Part shown: positions 50,767 to 64,000 of the stretch, piece after piece
Position numbering within the stretch: position 1 is the stretch's first letter
Layout: every line of letters begins with the position of its first letter
Source: the human T2T-CHM13v2.0 reference genome, Homo sapiens
DNA length: 64,000 nt
Direction of reading: 5' to 3'
NCBI GenBank assembly: GCA_009914755.4
Contig: CP086569.2
Location: 35,616,001-35,680,000, forward strand
Program-made: the position numbers and the translations under genes
Notes under the pieces: model-generated
What the model was told of the DNA's origin: nothing
The model's input: the letters and a program-made list of their open reading frames with translations, nothing else
Databases searched by the model: none

Positions 50767-51060
50767 TTTTTTTTTAGACAGAGTCTTGTCCTTTTGCACA
50801 GGGTGGAGTACAATGGCGCCATCTTTGCTCACTGCAACATCTGCCTCACGGGTCCAAGCGATTGTCCTCCCTCAGCCTCCCAGGTAGCTGGGACTACACC
50901 ACACTGGGACTACACCAGCTGCCACCATGCCTAGCTAATTTTTTGGATTTTTAGTAGTGACACCATTTCACTGTATTGGCCAGGATGGTCTTGATCTCTT
51001 CACCTTGTGATCCCCTTGCCTTGGCCTCCAAATTTGCTGGGATTACAGGCCTGAGCCAAG
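50767..51060 (-). mobile_element. Alu (antisense), unit 22
   Basis: Poly-T start verified at 50767. Variant 'gacaccatttcac'. Confidence 0.9.
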
Positions 51061-51630
51061 ATCCATATTTTTTAAATGAAAAAAAATTTCAAAGGTACTC
51101 TGCTTGGTACAATAATCAAATGTATAAACTGAGGAATAAAACATAACCATGAAACCTACTTATAACTGCATATGGAAAATACAGAGGATAATTTTTTAAA
51201 TAACATATTTTGAAAGCCTTAACTAGTAATTTGAAGAGTTGGTATTTGAAAGGCCAGTATGAATATACCTTCAAAGCAGCAACACAGGTTCCCCATGAGG
51301 AAAAGCAAACTCAGGGAAAATAAAACCACAAAGGTTCAATCTCTTCTGACCTTTGAAAGACACAGCACAGACAGTGGTCCTTAGGACGAAGAGCAGGAGA
51401 CCCCTAATTCCGTCACCATGGCGATAGGGCATAAACATTGCTGGGTGAGGGCACAATCCACATTGTGAGGTCCAACTGCTGCCAGGAAGACAGGAGTGCT
51501 TTTACATAGACCGAAAGGTCATTGAAGGCTCAGAGTTTTGTTTCAAGAACTGAATCCCAAGCCCACACGTTATTAGGCTGCGCTTCTTAAAACAGGTTAT
51601 GAGATGGGAAAAAGGGCACCCACAAACATA
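51061..51630. other. Unique segment, unit 22
   Basis: Same sequence. Confidence 0.85.
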
Positions 51631-53182
51631 CGTATACATTATGTATATAATAATATACAGTATCATATATATAATATATATAACCCATGTATAATATTGT
51701 TTTACATCCTGCATCTTATATTATATATATTGTATAAAATATAATAATTGATAATATATAAATTTTATATTTATACAATATGACATATAGTATATATTAT
51801 AATTTATTACATATATAATATATGTTATATATCATATATAGAATATATTATACGGTTAATATACGTATTAAATATAAATTATACATTATATATATTATAT
51901 ATAATATATCTGCTATATATAATACCCATTGTGCATAATATATATATTATGTCTATGTTATATATAGTATAAAACAACATATAATAATATATAATTGTAT
52001 ATATAAAACGCGACATATAATATATATTATATTTTATGACATATGTAATATATATTATATATTATATATAATACGTTGTATGTATAATACCTATATTAAA
52101 TATAAATTATATGACTATGTTATTAATTACATGTCACATATGTTATATATTATATATTTTACATAGAATATACCGGTTACATACAATATATACTATGTTA
52201 CCTATAATGTATAATTTATTACATGTAAAATAAAGAATGTAATATATTACGTATAATTTATAATATACAATATGTGGAATGTGATATATATAACATATAA
52301 TATATGATATATGATATACAGTATATGATATATAACATACAATATATGATACCTAATATATATGGTATACAATATATATTTTATGATATGTATTCTATAT
52401 GTTTTATATTCTGATATATATAACTATTTGAAATTATATATAACTGTATAATATTTTATGTAAATATGTAATATAATATATAACTATATAATATATTATA
52501 TATAACTATATATTATGTTATATATACTTTTATAACATAATTTACATAAAATATCATAATATAATATATATTATATTATTTCATATTACATAATATATAT
52601 TACATATCACCCAATATAAGTAACATACATAATATTATAATATAGATTATATTATGTTATATTAAATATCATATATATCATGTATCATATATTCTATAAT
52701 ATATATGATACATTATATAATATGTATGCTGTCTATTATGTGATATATATAACTATATATAATTATATTATTATACATATTACTAGATAAACATGTAATT
52801 CTACATATTTTCATTTATAATATATAGAATTATATAATCATATATAATTATTTATATTCTATAAAAAATTATATCATTATATAAATTATAATATATAAAA
52901 ATTATAATATGTACTACAAATATATATATTATATATCATATATGATATAGTACCTTTGTTATATATCATAATACATATAAATGTGTATTATGTTATCTAT
53001 AATTATATAATTTCATATATAAGATGTATAATATGTATTATATATTATATATGTTATGTAATATATATAGTATATATAAGATGACACAGGATAAATATTA
53101 TATACTATGACATATAAAATATATGAGGTTATATGTTACATATAAGGCATAGCACATAACATGTAATATATATCATATATAA
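51631..53182. repeat. AT-rich block, unit 22
   Basis: Same block. Variants 'aacccatgtataat', 'ctgctatatataatacccattgtgc'. Confidence 0.9.
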
Positions 53183-53476
53183 TTTTTTTTTAGACAGAGT
53201 CTTGTCCTGTTGCACAGGGTGGAGTACAATGGCGCCATCTTTGCTCACTGCAACATCGGCCTCACGGGTCCAAGCGATTGTCCTCCCTCAGCCTCCCAGG
53301 TAGCTGGGACTACACCACACTGGGACTACACCAGCTGCCACCATGCCTAGCTAATTTTTTGGATTTTTAGTAGTGACAGCGTTTCACTGTATTGGCCAGG
53401 ATGGTCTTGATCTCTTCACCTTGTGATCCCCTTGCCTTGGCCTCCAAATTTGCTGGGATTACAGGCCTGAGCCAAG
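53183..53476 (-). mobile_element. Alu (antisense), unit 23
   Basis: Placed by period offset. Variant 'aacatcggcc'. Confidence 0.88.
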
Positions 53477-54046
53477 ATCCATATTTTTTAAATGAAAAAA
53501 AATTTCAAAGGTACTCTGCTTGGTACAATAATCAAATGTATAAACTGAGGAATAAAACATAACCATGAAACCTACTTATAACTGCATATGGAAAATACAG
53601 AGGATAATTTTTTAAATAACATATTTTGAAAGCCTTAACTAGTAATTTGAAGAGTTGGCATTTGAAAGGCCAGTATGAATACACCTTCAAAGCAGCAACA
53701 CAGGTTCCCCATGAGAAAAAGCAAACTCAGGGAAAATAAAACCACAAAGGTTCAATCTCTTCTGACCTTTGAAAGACACAGCACAGACAGTGGTCCTTAG
53801 GACGAAGAGCAGGAGACCCCTAATTCCGTCACCATGGCGATAGGGCATAAACATTGCTGGGTGAGGGCACAATCCACATTGTGAGGTCCAACTGCTGCCA
53901 GGAAGACAGGAGTGCTTTTATATAGACCGAAAGGTCATTGAAGGCTCAGAGTTTTGTTTCAAGAACTGAATCCCAAGCCCACACGTTATTAGGCTGCGCT
54001 TCTTAAAACAAGTTATGAGATGGGAAAAAGGGCACCTACAAACATA
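53477..54046. other. Unique segment, unit 23
   Basis: Same sequence. Variant 'ggcacctacaaac'. Confidence 0.85.
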
Positions 54047-61290: not shown

Positions 61291-62840
61291 CGTATACATT
61301 ATGTATATAATAATATACAGTATCATATATATAATATATATAACCCATGTATAATATTGTTTTACATCCTGCATCTTATATTATATATATTGTATAAAAT
61401 ATAATAATTGATAATATATAAATTTTATATTTATACAATATGACATATAGTATATATTATTATTTATTACATATATAATATATGTTATATATCATATATA
61501 GAATATATTATACGGTTAATATACGAATTAAATATAAATTATACATTATATATATTATATATAATATATCTGCTATATATAATACCCATTGTGCATAATA
61601 TATATATTATGTCTATGTTATATAATATAAAACAACATATAATAATATATAATTGCATATATAAAACGCGACATATAATATATATTATATTTTATGACAT
61701 ATGTAATATATATTATATATTATATATAATACGTTGTATGTATAATACCTATATTAAATATAAATTATATGACTATGTTATTAATTACATGTCACATATG
61801 TTATATATTATATATTTTACATAGAATATACCGGTTACATACAATATATACTATGTTACCTATAATGTATAATTTATTACATGTAAAATAAAGAATGCAA
61901 TATATTATGTATAATTTATAATATACAATATGTGGAATGTGATATATATAACATATAATATATGATATATGATATACAGTATATGATATATAACATACAA
62001 TATATGATACCTAATATATATGGTATACAATATATATTTTATGATATGTATTCTATATGTTTTATATTCTGATATATATAACTATTTGAAATTATATATA
62101 ACTGTATAATATTTTATGTAAATATGTAATATAATATATAACTATATAATATATTATATATAACTATATATTATGTTATATATACTTTTATAACATAATT
62201 TACATAAAATATCATAATATAATATATATTATATTATTTCATATTACATAATATATATTACATATCACCCAATATAAGTAACATACATAATATTATAATA
62301 TAGATTATATTATGTTATATTAAATATCATATATATCATGTATCATATATTCTATAATATATATGATACATTATATAATATGTATGCTGTCTATTATGTG
62401 ATATATATAACTATATATAATTATATTATTATACATATTACTAGATAAACATGTAATTCTACATATTTTCATTTATAATATATAGAATTATATAATCATA
62501 TATAATTATTTATATTCTATAAAAAATTATATCATTATATAAATTATAATATATAAAAATTATAATATGTACTACAAATATATATATTATATATCATATA
62601 TGATATAGTACCTTTGTTATATATCATAATACATATAAATGTGTATTATGTTATCTATAATTATATAATTTCATATATAAGATGTATAATATGTATTATA
62701 TATTATATATGTTATGTAATATATATAGTATATATAAGATGACACAGGATAAATATTATATACTATGACATATAAAATATATGAGGTTATATGTTACATA
62801 TAAGGCATAGCACATAACATGTAATATATATCATATATAA
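61291..62840. repeat. AT-rich block, unit 26
   Basis: Same block. Near-identical to units 24-25. Confidence 0.9.
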
Positions 62841-63134
62841 TTTTTTTTTAGACAGAGTCTTGTCCTGTTGCACAGGGTGGAGTACAATGGCGCCATCTTT
62901 GCTCACTGCAACATCGGCCTCACGGGTCCAAGCGATTGTCCTCCCTCAGCCTCCCAGGTAGCTGGGACTACACCACACTGGGACTACACCAGCTGCCACC
63001 ATGCCTAGCTAATTTTTTGGATTTTTAGTAGTGACAGCGTTTCACTGTATTGGCCAGGATGGTCTTGATCTCTTCACCTTGTGATCCCCTTGCCTTGGCC
63101 TCCAAATTTGCTGGGATTACAGGCCTGAGCCAAG
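62841..63134 (-). mobile_element. Alu (antisense), unit 27
   Basis: Poly-T start verified at 62841. Variant 'aacatcggcc'. Confidence 0.9.
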
Positions 63135-63704
63135 ATCCATATTTTTTAAATGAAAAAAAATTTCAAAGGTACTCTGCTTGGTACAATAATCAAATGTATA
63201 AACTGAGGAATAAAACATAACCATGAAACCTACTTATAACTGCATATGGAAAATACAGAGGATAATTTTTTAAATAACATATTTTGAAAGCCTTAACTAG
63301 TAATTTGAAGAGTTGGCATTTGAAAGGCCAGTATGAATACACCTTCAAAGCAGCAACACAGGTTCCCCATGAGAAAAAGCAAACTCAGGGAAAATAAAAC
63401 CACAAAGGTTCAATCTCTTCTGACCTTTGAAAGACACAGCACAGACAGTGGTCCTTAGGACGAAGAGCAGGAGACCCCTAATTCCGTCACCATGGCGATA
63501 GGGCATAAACATTGCTGGGTGAGGGCACAATCCACATTGTGAGGTCCAACTGCTGCCAGGAAGACAGGAGTGCTTTTACATAGACCGAAAGGTCATTGAA
63601 GGCTCAGAGTTTTGTTTCAAGAACTGAATCCCAAGCCCACACGTTATTAGGCTGCGCTTCTTAAAACAAGTTATGAGATGGGAAAAAGGGCACCTACAAA
63701 CATA
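63135..63704. other. Unique segment, unit 27
   Basis: Same sequence. Variant 'ggcacctacaaac'. Confidence 0.85.
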
Positions 63705-64000
63705 CGTATACATTATGTATATAATAATATACAGTATCATATATATAATATATATAACCCATGTATAATATTGTTTTACATCCTGCATCTTATATTATAT
63801 ATATTGTATAAAATATAATAATTGATAATATATAAATTTTATATTTATACAATATGACATATAGTATATATTATAATTTATTACATATATAATATATGTT
63901 ATATATCATATATAGAATATATTATACGGTTAATATACGTATTAAATATAAATTATACATTATATATATTATATATAATATATCTGCTATATATAATACC
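63705..64000. repeat. AT-rich block, unit 27 (cut by window edge)
   Basis: Same block. Begins 'acgtatacattatgtatataataatatacag'. Confidence 0.9.

What the first reader, a model, noticed from the sequence alone, without database searches (positions are those of the whole stretch)
50767..64000. Units 22-27 are a near-identical block with their own private variants and a shorter 2414-2416-bp period
The last ~5.5 units share variants rare or absent elsewhere. 'ggcacctacaaac' replaces 'ggcacccacaaac' in units 23-27 (54031, 56447, 58861, 61275, 63689). 'aacccatgtataat' and 'ctgctatatataatacccattgtgc' occur from unit 22 on. 'aacatcggcc' occurs in Alu 23, 25, 26 and 27. The 2-bp deletion 'gttatataatataaaacaac' occurs in units 24-26. 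Identical 70-aa and 77-aa artefact ORFs recur at 2414-bp spacing. This looks like recent local amplification or unequal-crossover homogenisation of one unit variant. Unit 24's Alu deviates ('cacggttccaagtgattg', 'cttgacttgacgtcc'), which suggests mutation or conversion after the block formed.
Basis: seen in the sequence. Interest (0 to 1): 0.55.

Follow-up and report, generated by a model that had tools for sequence, protein, structure and literature searches.

The report
Young duplicated block in DYZ2 satellite
The window is a stretch of the well-known human 2.4-kb DYZ2/HSat1B satellite (Y long arm or acrocentric short arms), and its last five to six repeat units are a real but ordinary young patch of locally duplicated copies, the kind of turnover already documented for this satellite.

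Summary
All quoted motifs sit at the stated coordinates. Units 22-26 differ by 14 positions per 2.4 kb on average (99.4% identity), against 57 (97.6%) for other unit pairs. They are the tightest of all 53,130 five-unit subsets and form a clade with 100% bootstrap support. Every exact shared tract of 1.2 kb or more lies inside them.

The array is the human DYZ2/HSat1B composite satellite. Each unit has a 5'-truncated diverged Alu, a 569-bp GC-richer part and an AT-rich part. The modal unit is 2,420 bp.

Refinements:
- The block starts inside unit 22 (about 51,622-51,686), not at 50,767.
- The Alu halves of units 22 and 24 are not in the tight clade.
- The last ~840 bp of unit 20 carries the block haplotype.
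- 'aacatcggcc' also occurs in unit 21.
- Periods of 2,415-2,417 bp occur elsewhere; only 2,414 is private to the block.
- The 70-aa and 77-aa ORFs are by-products of two private variants.

If units are cut in the AT-rich part, the block gives a conflict-free nested tree. Its members are not identical (3-19 differences), so this is not a plain false duplication.

The most likely mechanism is serial unequal sister-chromatid exchange plus short gene conversion, as published for Yq12. The finding is already known and of low interest.

The parts
1..64000 (-). Uninterrupted DYZ2/HSat1B array of 27 units (units 1 and 27 are partial). The Alu fragment is on the minus strand, so its poly-A tail reads as poly-T at each unit start on the plus strand.
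   Evidence: Literature read.
51686..64000 (.). The homogeneous block, refined. It runs from the first block-defining derived variant in unit 22 (col 920 T>C) to the window end. The right edge is not in the window. The left switch point lies between 51,622 and 51,686.
   Evidence: There are six fixed private variants (cols 920, 996, 1042, 1147, 1165, 1339), all in the AT-rich part.
50767..51621 (.). Alu plus GC-richer part of unit 22. It is not a member of the tight clade. It is ancestral at cols 76, 500 and 855, shares 534G and 829G with unit 21, and has four private changes.
   Evidence: 9-14 differences per 870 columns to the other block units.
47509..48346 (.). The last ~840 bp of unit 20 carries the block's 3' haplotype. 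This includes the 2-bp deletions at cols 1710-1711 and 1990-1991, plus 1943G and 2019T. It is separated from the block by a foreign unit 21.
   Evidence: 3-5 differences per 780 columns, against 14 or more for any other unit.
55623..56098 (.). Deviant tract in unit 24's Alu and the start of the GC-richer part. It has 25G, 86T, 93T, 253A, 258A, 260G and 436C, and is ancestral at cols 76 and 500. Three of the substitutions fall within 8 bp, in 'cttgacttgacgtcc'.
   Evidence: clustering P = 4e-5. No donor was found in the window or in 33 external copies.
56790..64000 (.). Youngest sub-block. It comprises the AT-rich parts of units 24-26 and the Alu halves of units 25-27. These share the 2-bp deletion at cols 1193-1194, 1201A and 1232C, and have a 2,414-bp period.
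   Evidence: 3-5 differences per unit. The longest exact tract is 1,817 bp (59113-60929 = 61527-63343).
51502..51714 (-). First of six copies of the 70-aa artefact ORF. The others start at 54130, 56546, 58960, 61374 and 63788 on the minus strand. The ORF is opened by col 920 T>C, which turns TAG into TGG.
56763..56996 (+). First of three copies of the 77-aa artefact ORF (the others are at 59177 and 61591). It is opened by the frameshift from the 2-bp deletion.

Best explanation
The window is part of a human DYZ2/HSat1B satellite array. Yq12 is the most likely location; an acrocentric short arm is not excluded.

One variant of the 2.4-kb unit first acquired six substitutions and two 2-bp deletions in its AT-rich part. 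It was then copied head-to-tail several times by out-of-register exchange between sister chromatids (or an equivalent replication-coupled mis-pairing), in steps of one or two units. This produced at least five contiguous copies, which have since picked up 3-19 differences each.

If each unit is read as 'AT-rich part plus the following Alu and GC-richer part', the copies form a clean nested genealogy. V stands for a unit cut in this shifted register. V23 is the deepest branch, then V22, then V24 = V25 = V26.

Short-tract gene conversion or a clustered mutation then altered the Alu of unit 24. Exchange with foreign units produced the chimeric unit 22 and left a block-type fragment in unit 20.

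Shown here: the identity of the repeat, the clade, the private derived variants, the nested structure and the mosaicism. Inferred: the mechanism of exchange, the order of events and the ages.
For: Identity of the repeat:
- The modal unit is 2,420 bp.
- The Alu aligns to AluY from nt 13 to the tail at 82.7% identity. GC is 24.1% with 1 CpG per 151 bp, and the AT-rich part is 86.5% AT.
- 'ACATACG' sits at the junction of the GC-richer and AT-rich parts.
- These features match the published description of DYZ2.
- The 40-nt target of a probe that labels only Yq is present in 24 units.
- Thirty-three contaminant contigs from microbial assemblies match the window consensus; the best are 99.1-99.5% identical. 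Rhie et al. report this kind of contamination for HSat1B.

The block:
- Distances, subset rank and bootstrap support.
- Exact tracts up to 1,817 bp that cross unit boundaries.
- Six private alleles, none present in the 33 external copies. Window-wide variants do appear in 5-40% of those copies, so the sample could have detected common subfamily variants.
- There are zero four-gamete conflicts when the unit boundary is placed in cols 856-1193, against three with the boundary at the Alu start.
- Distances in the shifted register are close to ultrametric.

The process:
- De novo structural variants of 2,416-4,839 bp affecting whole DYZ2 units occur about once per Y transmission, and 29% of de novo SNVs look like interlocus conversion (PMC12240836).
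- Similarity decays with distance in the rest of the array too (rho 0.30, 4 of 5,000 permutations).
- At least 25 exchange events are needed across the array.
Against: - Amplification (a change in copy number) cannot be told apart from the spread of a variant over pre-existing units by conversion using one haplotype alone.
- The deepest member, V23, sits between V22 and V24. Simple one-unit duplications therefore do not suffice; a two-unit step or a later rearrangement is needed.
- The conflict-free register rests on only eight informative sites in two patterns. The three switch intervals would overlap by chance with probability about 0.14.
- The chromosome could not be determined.
- Read-level support for the assembly could not be checked.
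Confidence: 0.78

Rival explanations
1. Homogenisation by gene conversion only. The number of units never changed, and one variant haplotype was copied over neighbouring pre-existing units in successive conversion tracts.
For: - Conversion is frequent in this satellite: 29% of de novo Yq12 SNVs have non-orthologous matches.
- The block haplotype occurs as fragments: unit 20's last 840 bp, and unit 22 only from col 920 onward.
- Unit 24's Alu looks like a conversion tract.
Against: - Exact tracts of 1.2-1.8 kb run across unit boundaries, and whole units are near-identical. This would need several long, precisely abutting tracts.
- The nested genealogy has no conflicts.
- Whole-unit gains and losses have been observed directly at about one per generation.
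Confidence: 0.12
2. The block is merely the left edge of a much larger domain of a distinct DYZ2 subtype that continues beyond the window. In that case the '5.5 units' and the local amplification are an artefact of where the window ends.
For: - The block touches the window end, so its right edge is unseen.
- Published work describes more homogeneous interiors and more diverged peripheries in DYZ2 arrays.
- Unit 1 is near-canonical (0.5% from the external consensus), whereas units 2-27 are 1.1-2.5% diverged. The window does therefore cross subtype transitions.
Against: This is not a rival in mechanism, since a larger domain would have arisen by the same unequal exchange. None of the 33 external DYZ2 copies carries a block allele, so the subtype is not abundant genome-wide.
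Confidence: 0.45
3. Assembly artefact: false duplication or over-polishing of a satellite region produced near-identical tandem units.
For: Satellite arrays are error-prone in assemblies. No read data were available to check this.
Against: - No two units are identical. Each has its own private substitutions, and the differences form a nested hierarchy. A false duplication would give identical copies.
- The unit lengths (2,414 and 2,416 bp) are consistent with real 2-bp indels shared in a phylogenetically sensible way.
Confidence: 0.04
4. Higher-order repeat structure: the similarity reflects a multi-unit periodic superstructure rather than a local patch.
For: Some lag-3 similarity exists elsewhere in the array (units 4/7 and 5/8; the 3' part of unit 3 with that of unit 6).
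Against: Mean difference rises monotonically with lag and shows no periodic minimum. The block members are adjacent, not periodically spaced.
Confidence: 0.02

Closest known systems
DYZ2 / HSat1B satellite of human Yq12 and acrocentric short arms (Frommer et al. 1984 '2.47-kb male-specific satellite I unit with one Alu'; Rhie et al. 2023; Hallast et al. 2023)
   Same: The unit length (2,420 bp), the three-part composition, the GC and CpG content, the junction motif, the probe target, and near-identity to human contaminant copies.
   Different: Nothing in kind. This stretch is more diverged than typical: units are 1.1-2.5% from the general consensus, and only 52% of units are 2,420 bp against 93.7% Yq12-wide. 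That suggests a peripheral array or an array edge.
De novo whole-unit DYZ2 gains and losses and interlocus gene conversion in Yq12 (Porubsky et al. 2025, PMC12240836)
   Same: The event sizes are multiples of one unit (published range 2,416-4,839 bp), and conversion-like variants occur. The block is the accumulated footprint of such events.
   Different: Here the events are inferred from a single haplotype and are old (thousands of generations at the published rate). They were not observed in a pedigree.
Local expansions and contractions inside HSat1B sub-arrays seen in exact-match dotplots (Rhie et al. 2023, Extended Data Fig. 8)
   Same: Contiguous runs of near-identical units inside an otherwise ~98% identical array.
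   Different: The scale here is small (about 13 kb visible). The published examples reach hundreds of kb to 5 Mb.
Concerted evolution by unequal crossing-over in tandem arrays in general (alpha-satellite HOR arrays, rDNA, macrosatellites)
   Same: Similarity decays with distance, young homogeneous patches occur, and older units are mosaic.
   Different: No higher-order periodicity was detected here. The region does not undergo meiotic crossing-over if it is on the Y, so exchange would be between sister chromatids.

Membership tests
DYZ2 / HSat1B | Tandem unit of about 2.4 kb with a modal length of 2,420 bp. | tested here: met
   the 25 complete units are 2,414-2,420 bp, and 13 are exactly 2,420. 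Published median is 2,420.
DYZ2 / HSat1B | One 5'-truncated Alu of about 290 bp per unit, roughly 20% diverged from AluY. | tested here: met
The segment is cols 1-297.
DYZ2 / HSat1B | A GC-richer 'HSATI' segment of about 566 bp, followed by an extremely AT-rich segment (>85% AT). | tested here: met
   cols 298-866 (569 bp) are 39.4% GC, and cols 867-2420 are 13.5% GC. The Dfam label 'HSATI' itself could not be tested because no repeat library was available.
DYZ2 / HSat1B | About 24% GC overall and about 1 CpG per 150 bp. | tested here: met
   24.1% GC and 1 CpG per 151 bp.
DYZ2 / HSat1B | 'ACATACG' at the junction of the HSATI segment and the AT-rich segment. | tested here: met
   the consensus reads ...GGCACCCACAAACATACGTATAC... 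at cols 848-870.
DYZ2 / HSat1B | Contains the sequence used experimentally to label Yq (the 40-nt 'Y-chrom' padlock target taken from Frommer 1984). | tested here: met
   21 exact matches and 3 one-mismatch matches, one per unit, on the minus strand. The probe sequence is from PMC2212658.
DYZ2 / HSat1B | A high-copy human sequence that turns up as a contaminant in microbial assemblies. | tested here: met
   12 contigs from bacterial genome assemblies and 21 metagenome contigs match. The best are 99.1-99.5% identical to the window consensus over up to 2.5 kb.
DYZ2 / HSat1B | Located in Yq12, alternating with DYZ1 arrays, or on an acrocentric short arm. | not testable with these tools
   No human reference genome was available, and the window contains no flanking DYZ1 or unique sequence.
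Local tandem amplification by unequal exchange | The members are contiguous, monophyletic and share derived variants that are absent elsewhere. | tested here: met
Local tandem amplification by unequal exchange | Copy number differs from the ancestral or orthologous array. | not testable with these tools
   This needs orthologous arrays from related haplotypes.
Higher-order repeat (HOR) satellite | A periodic minimum of divergence at a fixed multi-unit lag. | tested here: not met
   mean differences rise from 49 (lag 1) to about 60 (lag 8 and beyond) without periodicity.

The most novel reading that the evidence does not exclude
The three haplotype switch points that delimit the block members are all compatible with a single register. 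That register falls in the first ~340 bp of the AT-rich segment, and the left edge is pinned to a 64-bp interval right after the GC-richer part. This could mean that unit-scale exchanges in DYZ2 start preferentially at the junction between the GC-richer and AT-rich parts, for example at break-prone AT-rich inverted repeats. The overlap would arise by chance with probability about 0.14, and breakpoints elsewhere in the array are scattered.
Probability: 0.08. Interest if true: 0.35.

Novelty: already known. Interest (0 to 1): 0.12.

Why it matters
It matters little beyond annotation. It identifies the window as DYZ2/HSat1B and shows, at single-unit resolution, the footprint of processes already measured in pedigrees and T2T assemblies: whole-unit unequal exchange and short conversion.

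One practical point follows. In such arrays the arbitrary choice of unit boundary creates apparent recombinants, and re-phasing the unit removed all conflicts here.

If the window is placed on a reference, the private alleles (920C, 996A, 1042T, 1147C, 1165G, 1339A, and the 2-bp deletion of units 24-26) could serve as markers for dating the event on the Y phylogeny.

Tried and rejected
- **Rfam scan of 50,000-64,000:** no family reached its threshold. The Alu is too diverged for the SRP/Alu models, so this says nothing either way.
- **IMG/VR scan for the col-920 region:** no DYZ2 copies at all, so it could not be used to test whether the variants are private.
- **Search for a donor of unit 24's deviant Alu and for every block singleton in 33 external copies:** none found. 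These contigs are mostly collapsed consensus sequences, so the power is low.
- **Exchange hotspot (Hudson-Kaplan intervals):** Rm is at least 25, and the intervals are scattered over the whole unit. The hotspot idea is therefore not supported.
- **Longer external loci (L016, L026, L032) as independent examples of local homogenisation:** unit lengths were irregular (2,396-2,433 bp) and divergences noisy. They were not used.
- **HOR structure:** rejected.
- **Coding potential of the recurring ORFs:** rejected. They are low-complexity, were found with the bacterial genetic code in human satellite DNA, and are opened by single private variants.
- **Y versus acrocentric origin:** could not be resolved.
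Full report
**What the window is.** The 64-kb window is one uninterrupted tandem array of 27 units: 25 complete units of 2,414-2,420 bp, with units 1 and 27 cut by the window ends. Each unit has three parts.
- A roughly 297-bp Alu fragment lies on the minus strand.
- A 569-bp part has 39% GC.
- A 1,554-bp part has 13.5% GC.

Overall the unit has 24.1% GC and 1 CpG per 151 bp.

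This is the published description of DYZ2/HSat1B (Hallast et al.; Rhie et al.):
- a 2,420-bp consensus, with 93.7% of Yq12 units exactly 2,420 bp;
- an Alu of 290 bp at about 20% divergence;
- an HSATI segment of 566 bp and an AT-rich simple-repeat segment;
- 24% GC and 1 CpG per 150 bp;
- 'ACATACG' at the junction of the HSATI and AT-rich segments.

The junction motif is present in the window consensus (...CACAAACATACGTATAC...).

Two independent links support this identification.
- The 40-nt target of the 'Y-chrom' padlock probe occurs once per unit, with 21 exact and 3 one-mismatch copies. The probe was designed from Frommer et al. 1984's male-specific 2.47-kb satellite I unit and labelled only the Y long arm (PMC2212658).
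- Scanning bacterial genome contigs and metagenome contigs for a conserved 26-mer returned 33 contaminant contigs. The best are 99.1-99.5% identical to the window consensus over up to 2.5 kb. Rhie et al. report this kind of contamination for HSat1B.

Whether the window lies in Yq12 (about 14 Mb of DYZ2 in T2T-Y) or in a smaller acrocentric array cannot be decided with these tools.

**Checking the observation.** There is one omission: 'aacatcggcc' is also in unit 21 (48416).

I aligned all 27 units with MAFFT. The alignment has 2,420 columns, 366 of them variable and 163 parsimony-informative.
- Units 22-27 differ from each other at 5-21 positions. Typical other pairs differ at 40-80.
- The mean within units 22-26 is 14.0 (99.42% identity), against 57.1 (97.64%) among units 2-21.
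- Of all 53,130 possible five-unit subsets, the block has the lowest mean; the next lowest is 22.8.
- A neighbour-joining tree gives the clade of units 22-26 100% bootstrap support.
- All four exact shared tracts of 1,200 bp or more in the window, and 8 of 11 of 700 bp or more, join members of the block. The longest is 1,817 bp.

The 'shorter period' is real but only partly private. Lengths of 2,415-2,417 bp also occur in units 4, 9, 10, 11, 13, 18 and 20. Only 2,414 (units 24-26) is unique. The shortening comes from three 2-bp deletions in TA-rich runs:
- cols 1710-1711, shared with unit 20;
- cols 1990-1991, shared with units 4, 9-11 and 20;
- cols 1193-1194, in units 24-26 only.

The recurring ORFs are not independent evidence. 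The 70-aa ORF exists because the private T>C at col 920 turns TAG into TGG; unit 2 opens the same ORF through a different substitution at that site. The 77-aa ORF is opened by the frameshift from the 2-bp deletion of units 24-26.

**Anatomy of the block.** Six derived alleles are fixed in units 22-26/27 and absent from units 1-21: cols 920, 996, 1042, 1147, 1165 and 1339. All lie in the AT-rich part. None occurs in the 33 external copies. The window-wide variants, by contrast, do appear in 5-40% of those copies, so the external sample can detect common subfamily variants.

Partitioning the unit shows that the block is not homogeneous along its length.
- In the Alu plus GC-richer 870 columns, units 23, 25, 26 and 27 differ at 0-2 positions.
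- Units 22 and 24 differ from them at 9-14 positions. Unit 8 is closer to them, at 6.
- In the last 780 columns, units 22-26 differ at 0-4 positions.
- Unit 20 joins them there with 3-5 differences, against 14 or more for any other unit. Its block-like tract is about 47,509-48,346.

If the boundary is placed anywhere in cols 856-1193, the conflicts fall to zero.

I write V for a unit cut in this shifted register, that is, one unit's AT-rich part plus the next unit's Alu and GC-richer part. The members then form a nested, nearly ultrametric genealogy:
- V24, V25 and V26 differ by 3-5 positions;
- V22 is 8-10 from them;
- V23 is 15-19 from all of them;
- the nearest non-member is 35 away.

The left edge of the block is therefore inside unit 22, between 51,622 and 51,686, not at 50,767. 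Exact tracts that cross the Alu boundary agree with this register, for example 52251-53920 = 61909-63578. The register rests on eight sites, and the three switch intervals would overlap by chance about 14% of the time. I treat it as the most parsimonious description, not as evidence for a hotspot.

**Unit 24's Alu.** They belong to a cluster of 25G, 86T, 93T, 253A, 258A, 260G and 436C, with ancestral states at cols 76 and 500. Three of the substitutions lie within 8 bp.

Seven of the eight private changes of V23 fall in the first 436 of 2,416 columns (binomial P = 4e-5). This is not clock-like accumulation. It points to one event: a conversion tract of at least 475 bp and less than 830 bp from a copy outside the window, or a clustered mutation. 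No donor was found in the window or in the external copies.

**The rest of the array behaves the same way, only older.**
- Other close pairs exist: units 10/11 differ at 7 positions, units 5/6/8 at 21-34, units 4/7 at 33 and units 15/18 at 30.
- The variable-site table shows haplotype segments shared in different combinations along the unit.
- Similarity decays with distance even with the block excluded (Spearman 0.30; 4 of 5,000 permutations reach it), with no periodic lag.
- A Hudson-Kaplan bound needs at least 25 exchanges or recurrent mutations, scattered over the whole unit.

**Mechanism.** The pattern has four features: contiguous monophyletic copies, shared derived variants, exact tracts spanning unit junctions, and older mosaicism around them. 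This is the classical footprint of out-of-register exchange in a tandem array, followed by short conversion.

For DYZ2 the process has been seen directly (Porubsky et al. 2025):
- there were five de novo structural variants of 2,416-4,839 bp, each a whole number of DYZ2 units, at about one per Y transmission;
- the SNV rate in Yq12 was 3.86e-7 per bp per generation;
- 29% of those SNVs matched non-orthologous copies, consistent with interlocus conversion.

Rhie et al. report sister-chromatid exchanges in Yq12 and local expansions inside HSat1B sub-arrays. Hallast et al. infer localised expansion and contraction.

If the window is in Yq12 and the published rate applies, the divergences translate very roughly into these ages:
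- about 1,600-2,700 generations for V24-26;
- about 4,300-5,400 for V22;
- about 8,000-10,000 for V23;
- about 30,000 for the background.

'Recent' is therefore relative. These ages are inference, not measurement. The deepest member, V23, lies between V22 and V24, so at least one step involved two units or a later rearrangement. Amplification cannot be formally separated from pure conversion without orthologous arrays.

**Artefact?** No two units are identical. Each carries its own singletons, and the differences are hierarchical. This argues against a false duplication. Read-level validation was not possible.

**Verdict.** The object is an ordinary young patch in a DYZ2/HSat1B array, and both the family and the process are already described. 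Interest is low.

Noticed in passing
window 1-2956 (unit 1 and the first ~560 bp of unit 2); also units 10-12, about 21746-28997: Unit 1 is only 0.50% from the external (genome-wide) DYZ2 consensus, whereas units 2-27 are 1.1-2.5% diverged. At 16 sites the window majority differs from the external majority. Unit 1, the 5' part of unit 2, the 5' parts of units 10-12 and the 3' part of unit 12 carry the canonical alleles. The window therefore mixes canonical and locally diverged segments, which fits an array edge or a peripheral array. Only 52% of units are 2,420 bp, against 93.7% Yq12-wide.
   Followed up: partly
window 21746-26577 (units 10 and 11): This is the second-youngest duplication in the window. 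The two adjacent units differ at only 7 positions and have 100% bootstrap support. Unit 9 shares their 3' part and unit 12 shares their 5' part.
   Followed up: partly
window about 6457-11291 versus about 13712-18550: There is a trace of a three-unit (about 7.26 kb) duplication. The stretch from the 3' third of unit 3 through the mid part of unit 5 matches the stretch from the 3' third of unit 6 through the mid part of unit 8, segment by segment (1-8 differences per segment). The exception is the 3' thirds of units 4 and 7 (23 differences), and unit 7's copy instead matches unit 5's (6 differences). This suggests a later conversion.
   Followed up: partly
window about 35993-36090 (unit 15) and about 43250-43347 (unit 18): Units 15 and 18 share a dense patch of 11 substitutions within about 100 bp (cols 2159-2256), and unit 17 shares part of it. 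It looks like a conversion tract from a much more diverged copy.
   Followed up: no
window 55847-55861 (unit 24): Three substitutions fall within 8 bp (CCTTGCCTTGGCCTCC to CCTTGACTTGACGTCC). This is a multi-nucleotide event inside the deviant Alu tract.
   Followed up: partly
window 3132-3344, minus strand (unit 2): Unit 2 independently opens the same 70-aa artefact ORF through a different substitution at the same site (col 920 T>A, TAG to TTG). Col 920 has therefore mutated twice in this window.
   Followed up: yes
L005 5897-6920 (NZ_HF570958.1, Nostocoides japonicum, 5.16-Mb scaffold); L001-L012 in general: Twelve contigs from bacterial species-representative genome assemblies contain DYZ2/HSat1B sequence. 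One case is about 1 kb (97.9% identity) embedded in a 5.16-Mb scaffold rather than on a small stray contig. This is human contamination that has been built into a bacterial assembly.
   Followed up: no
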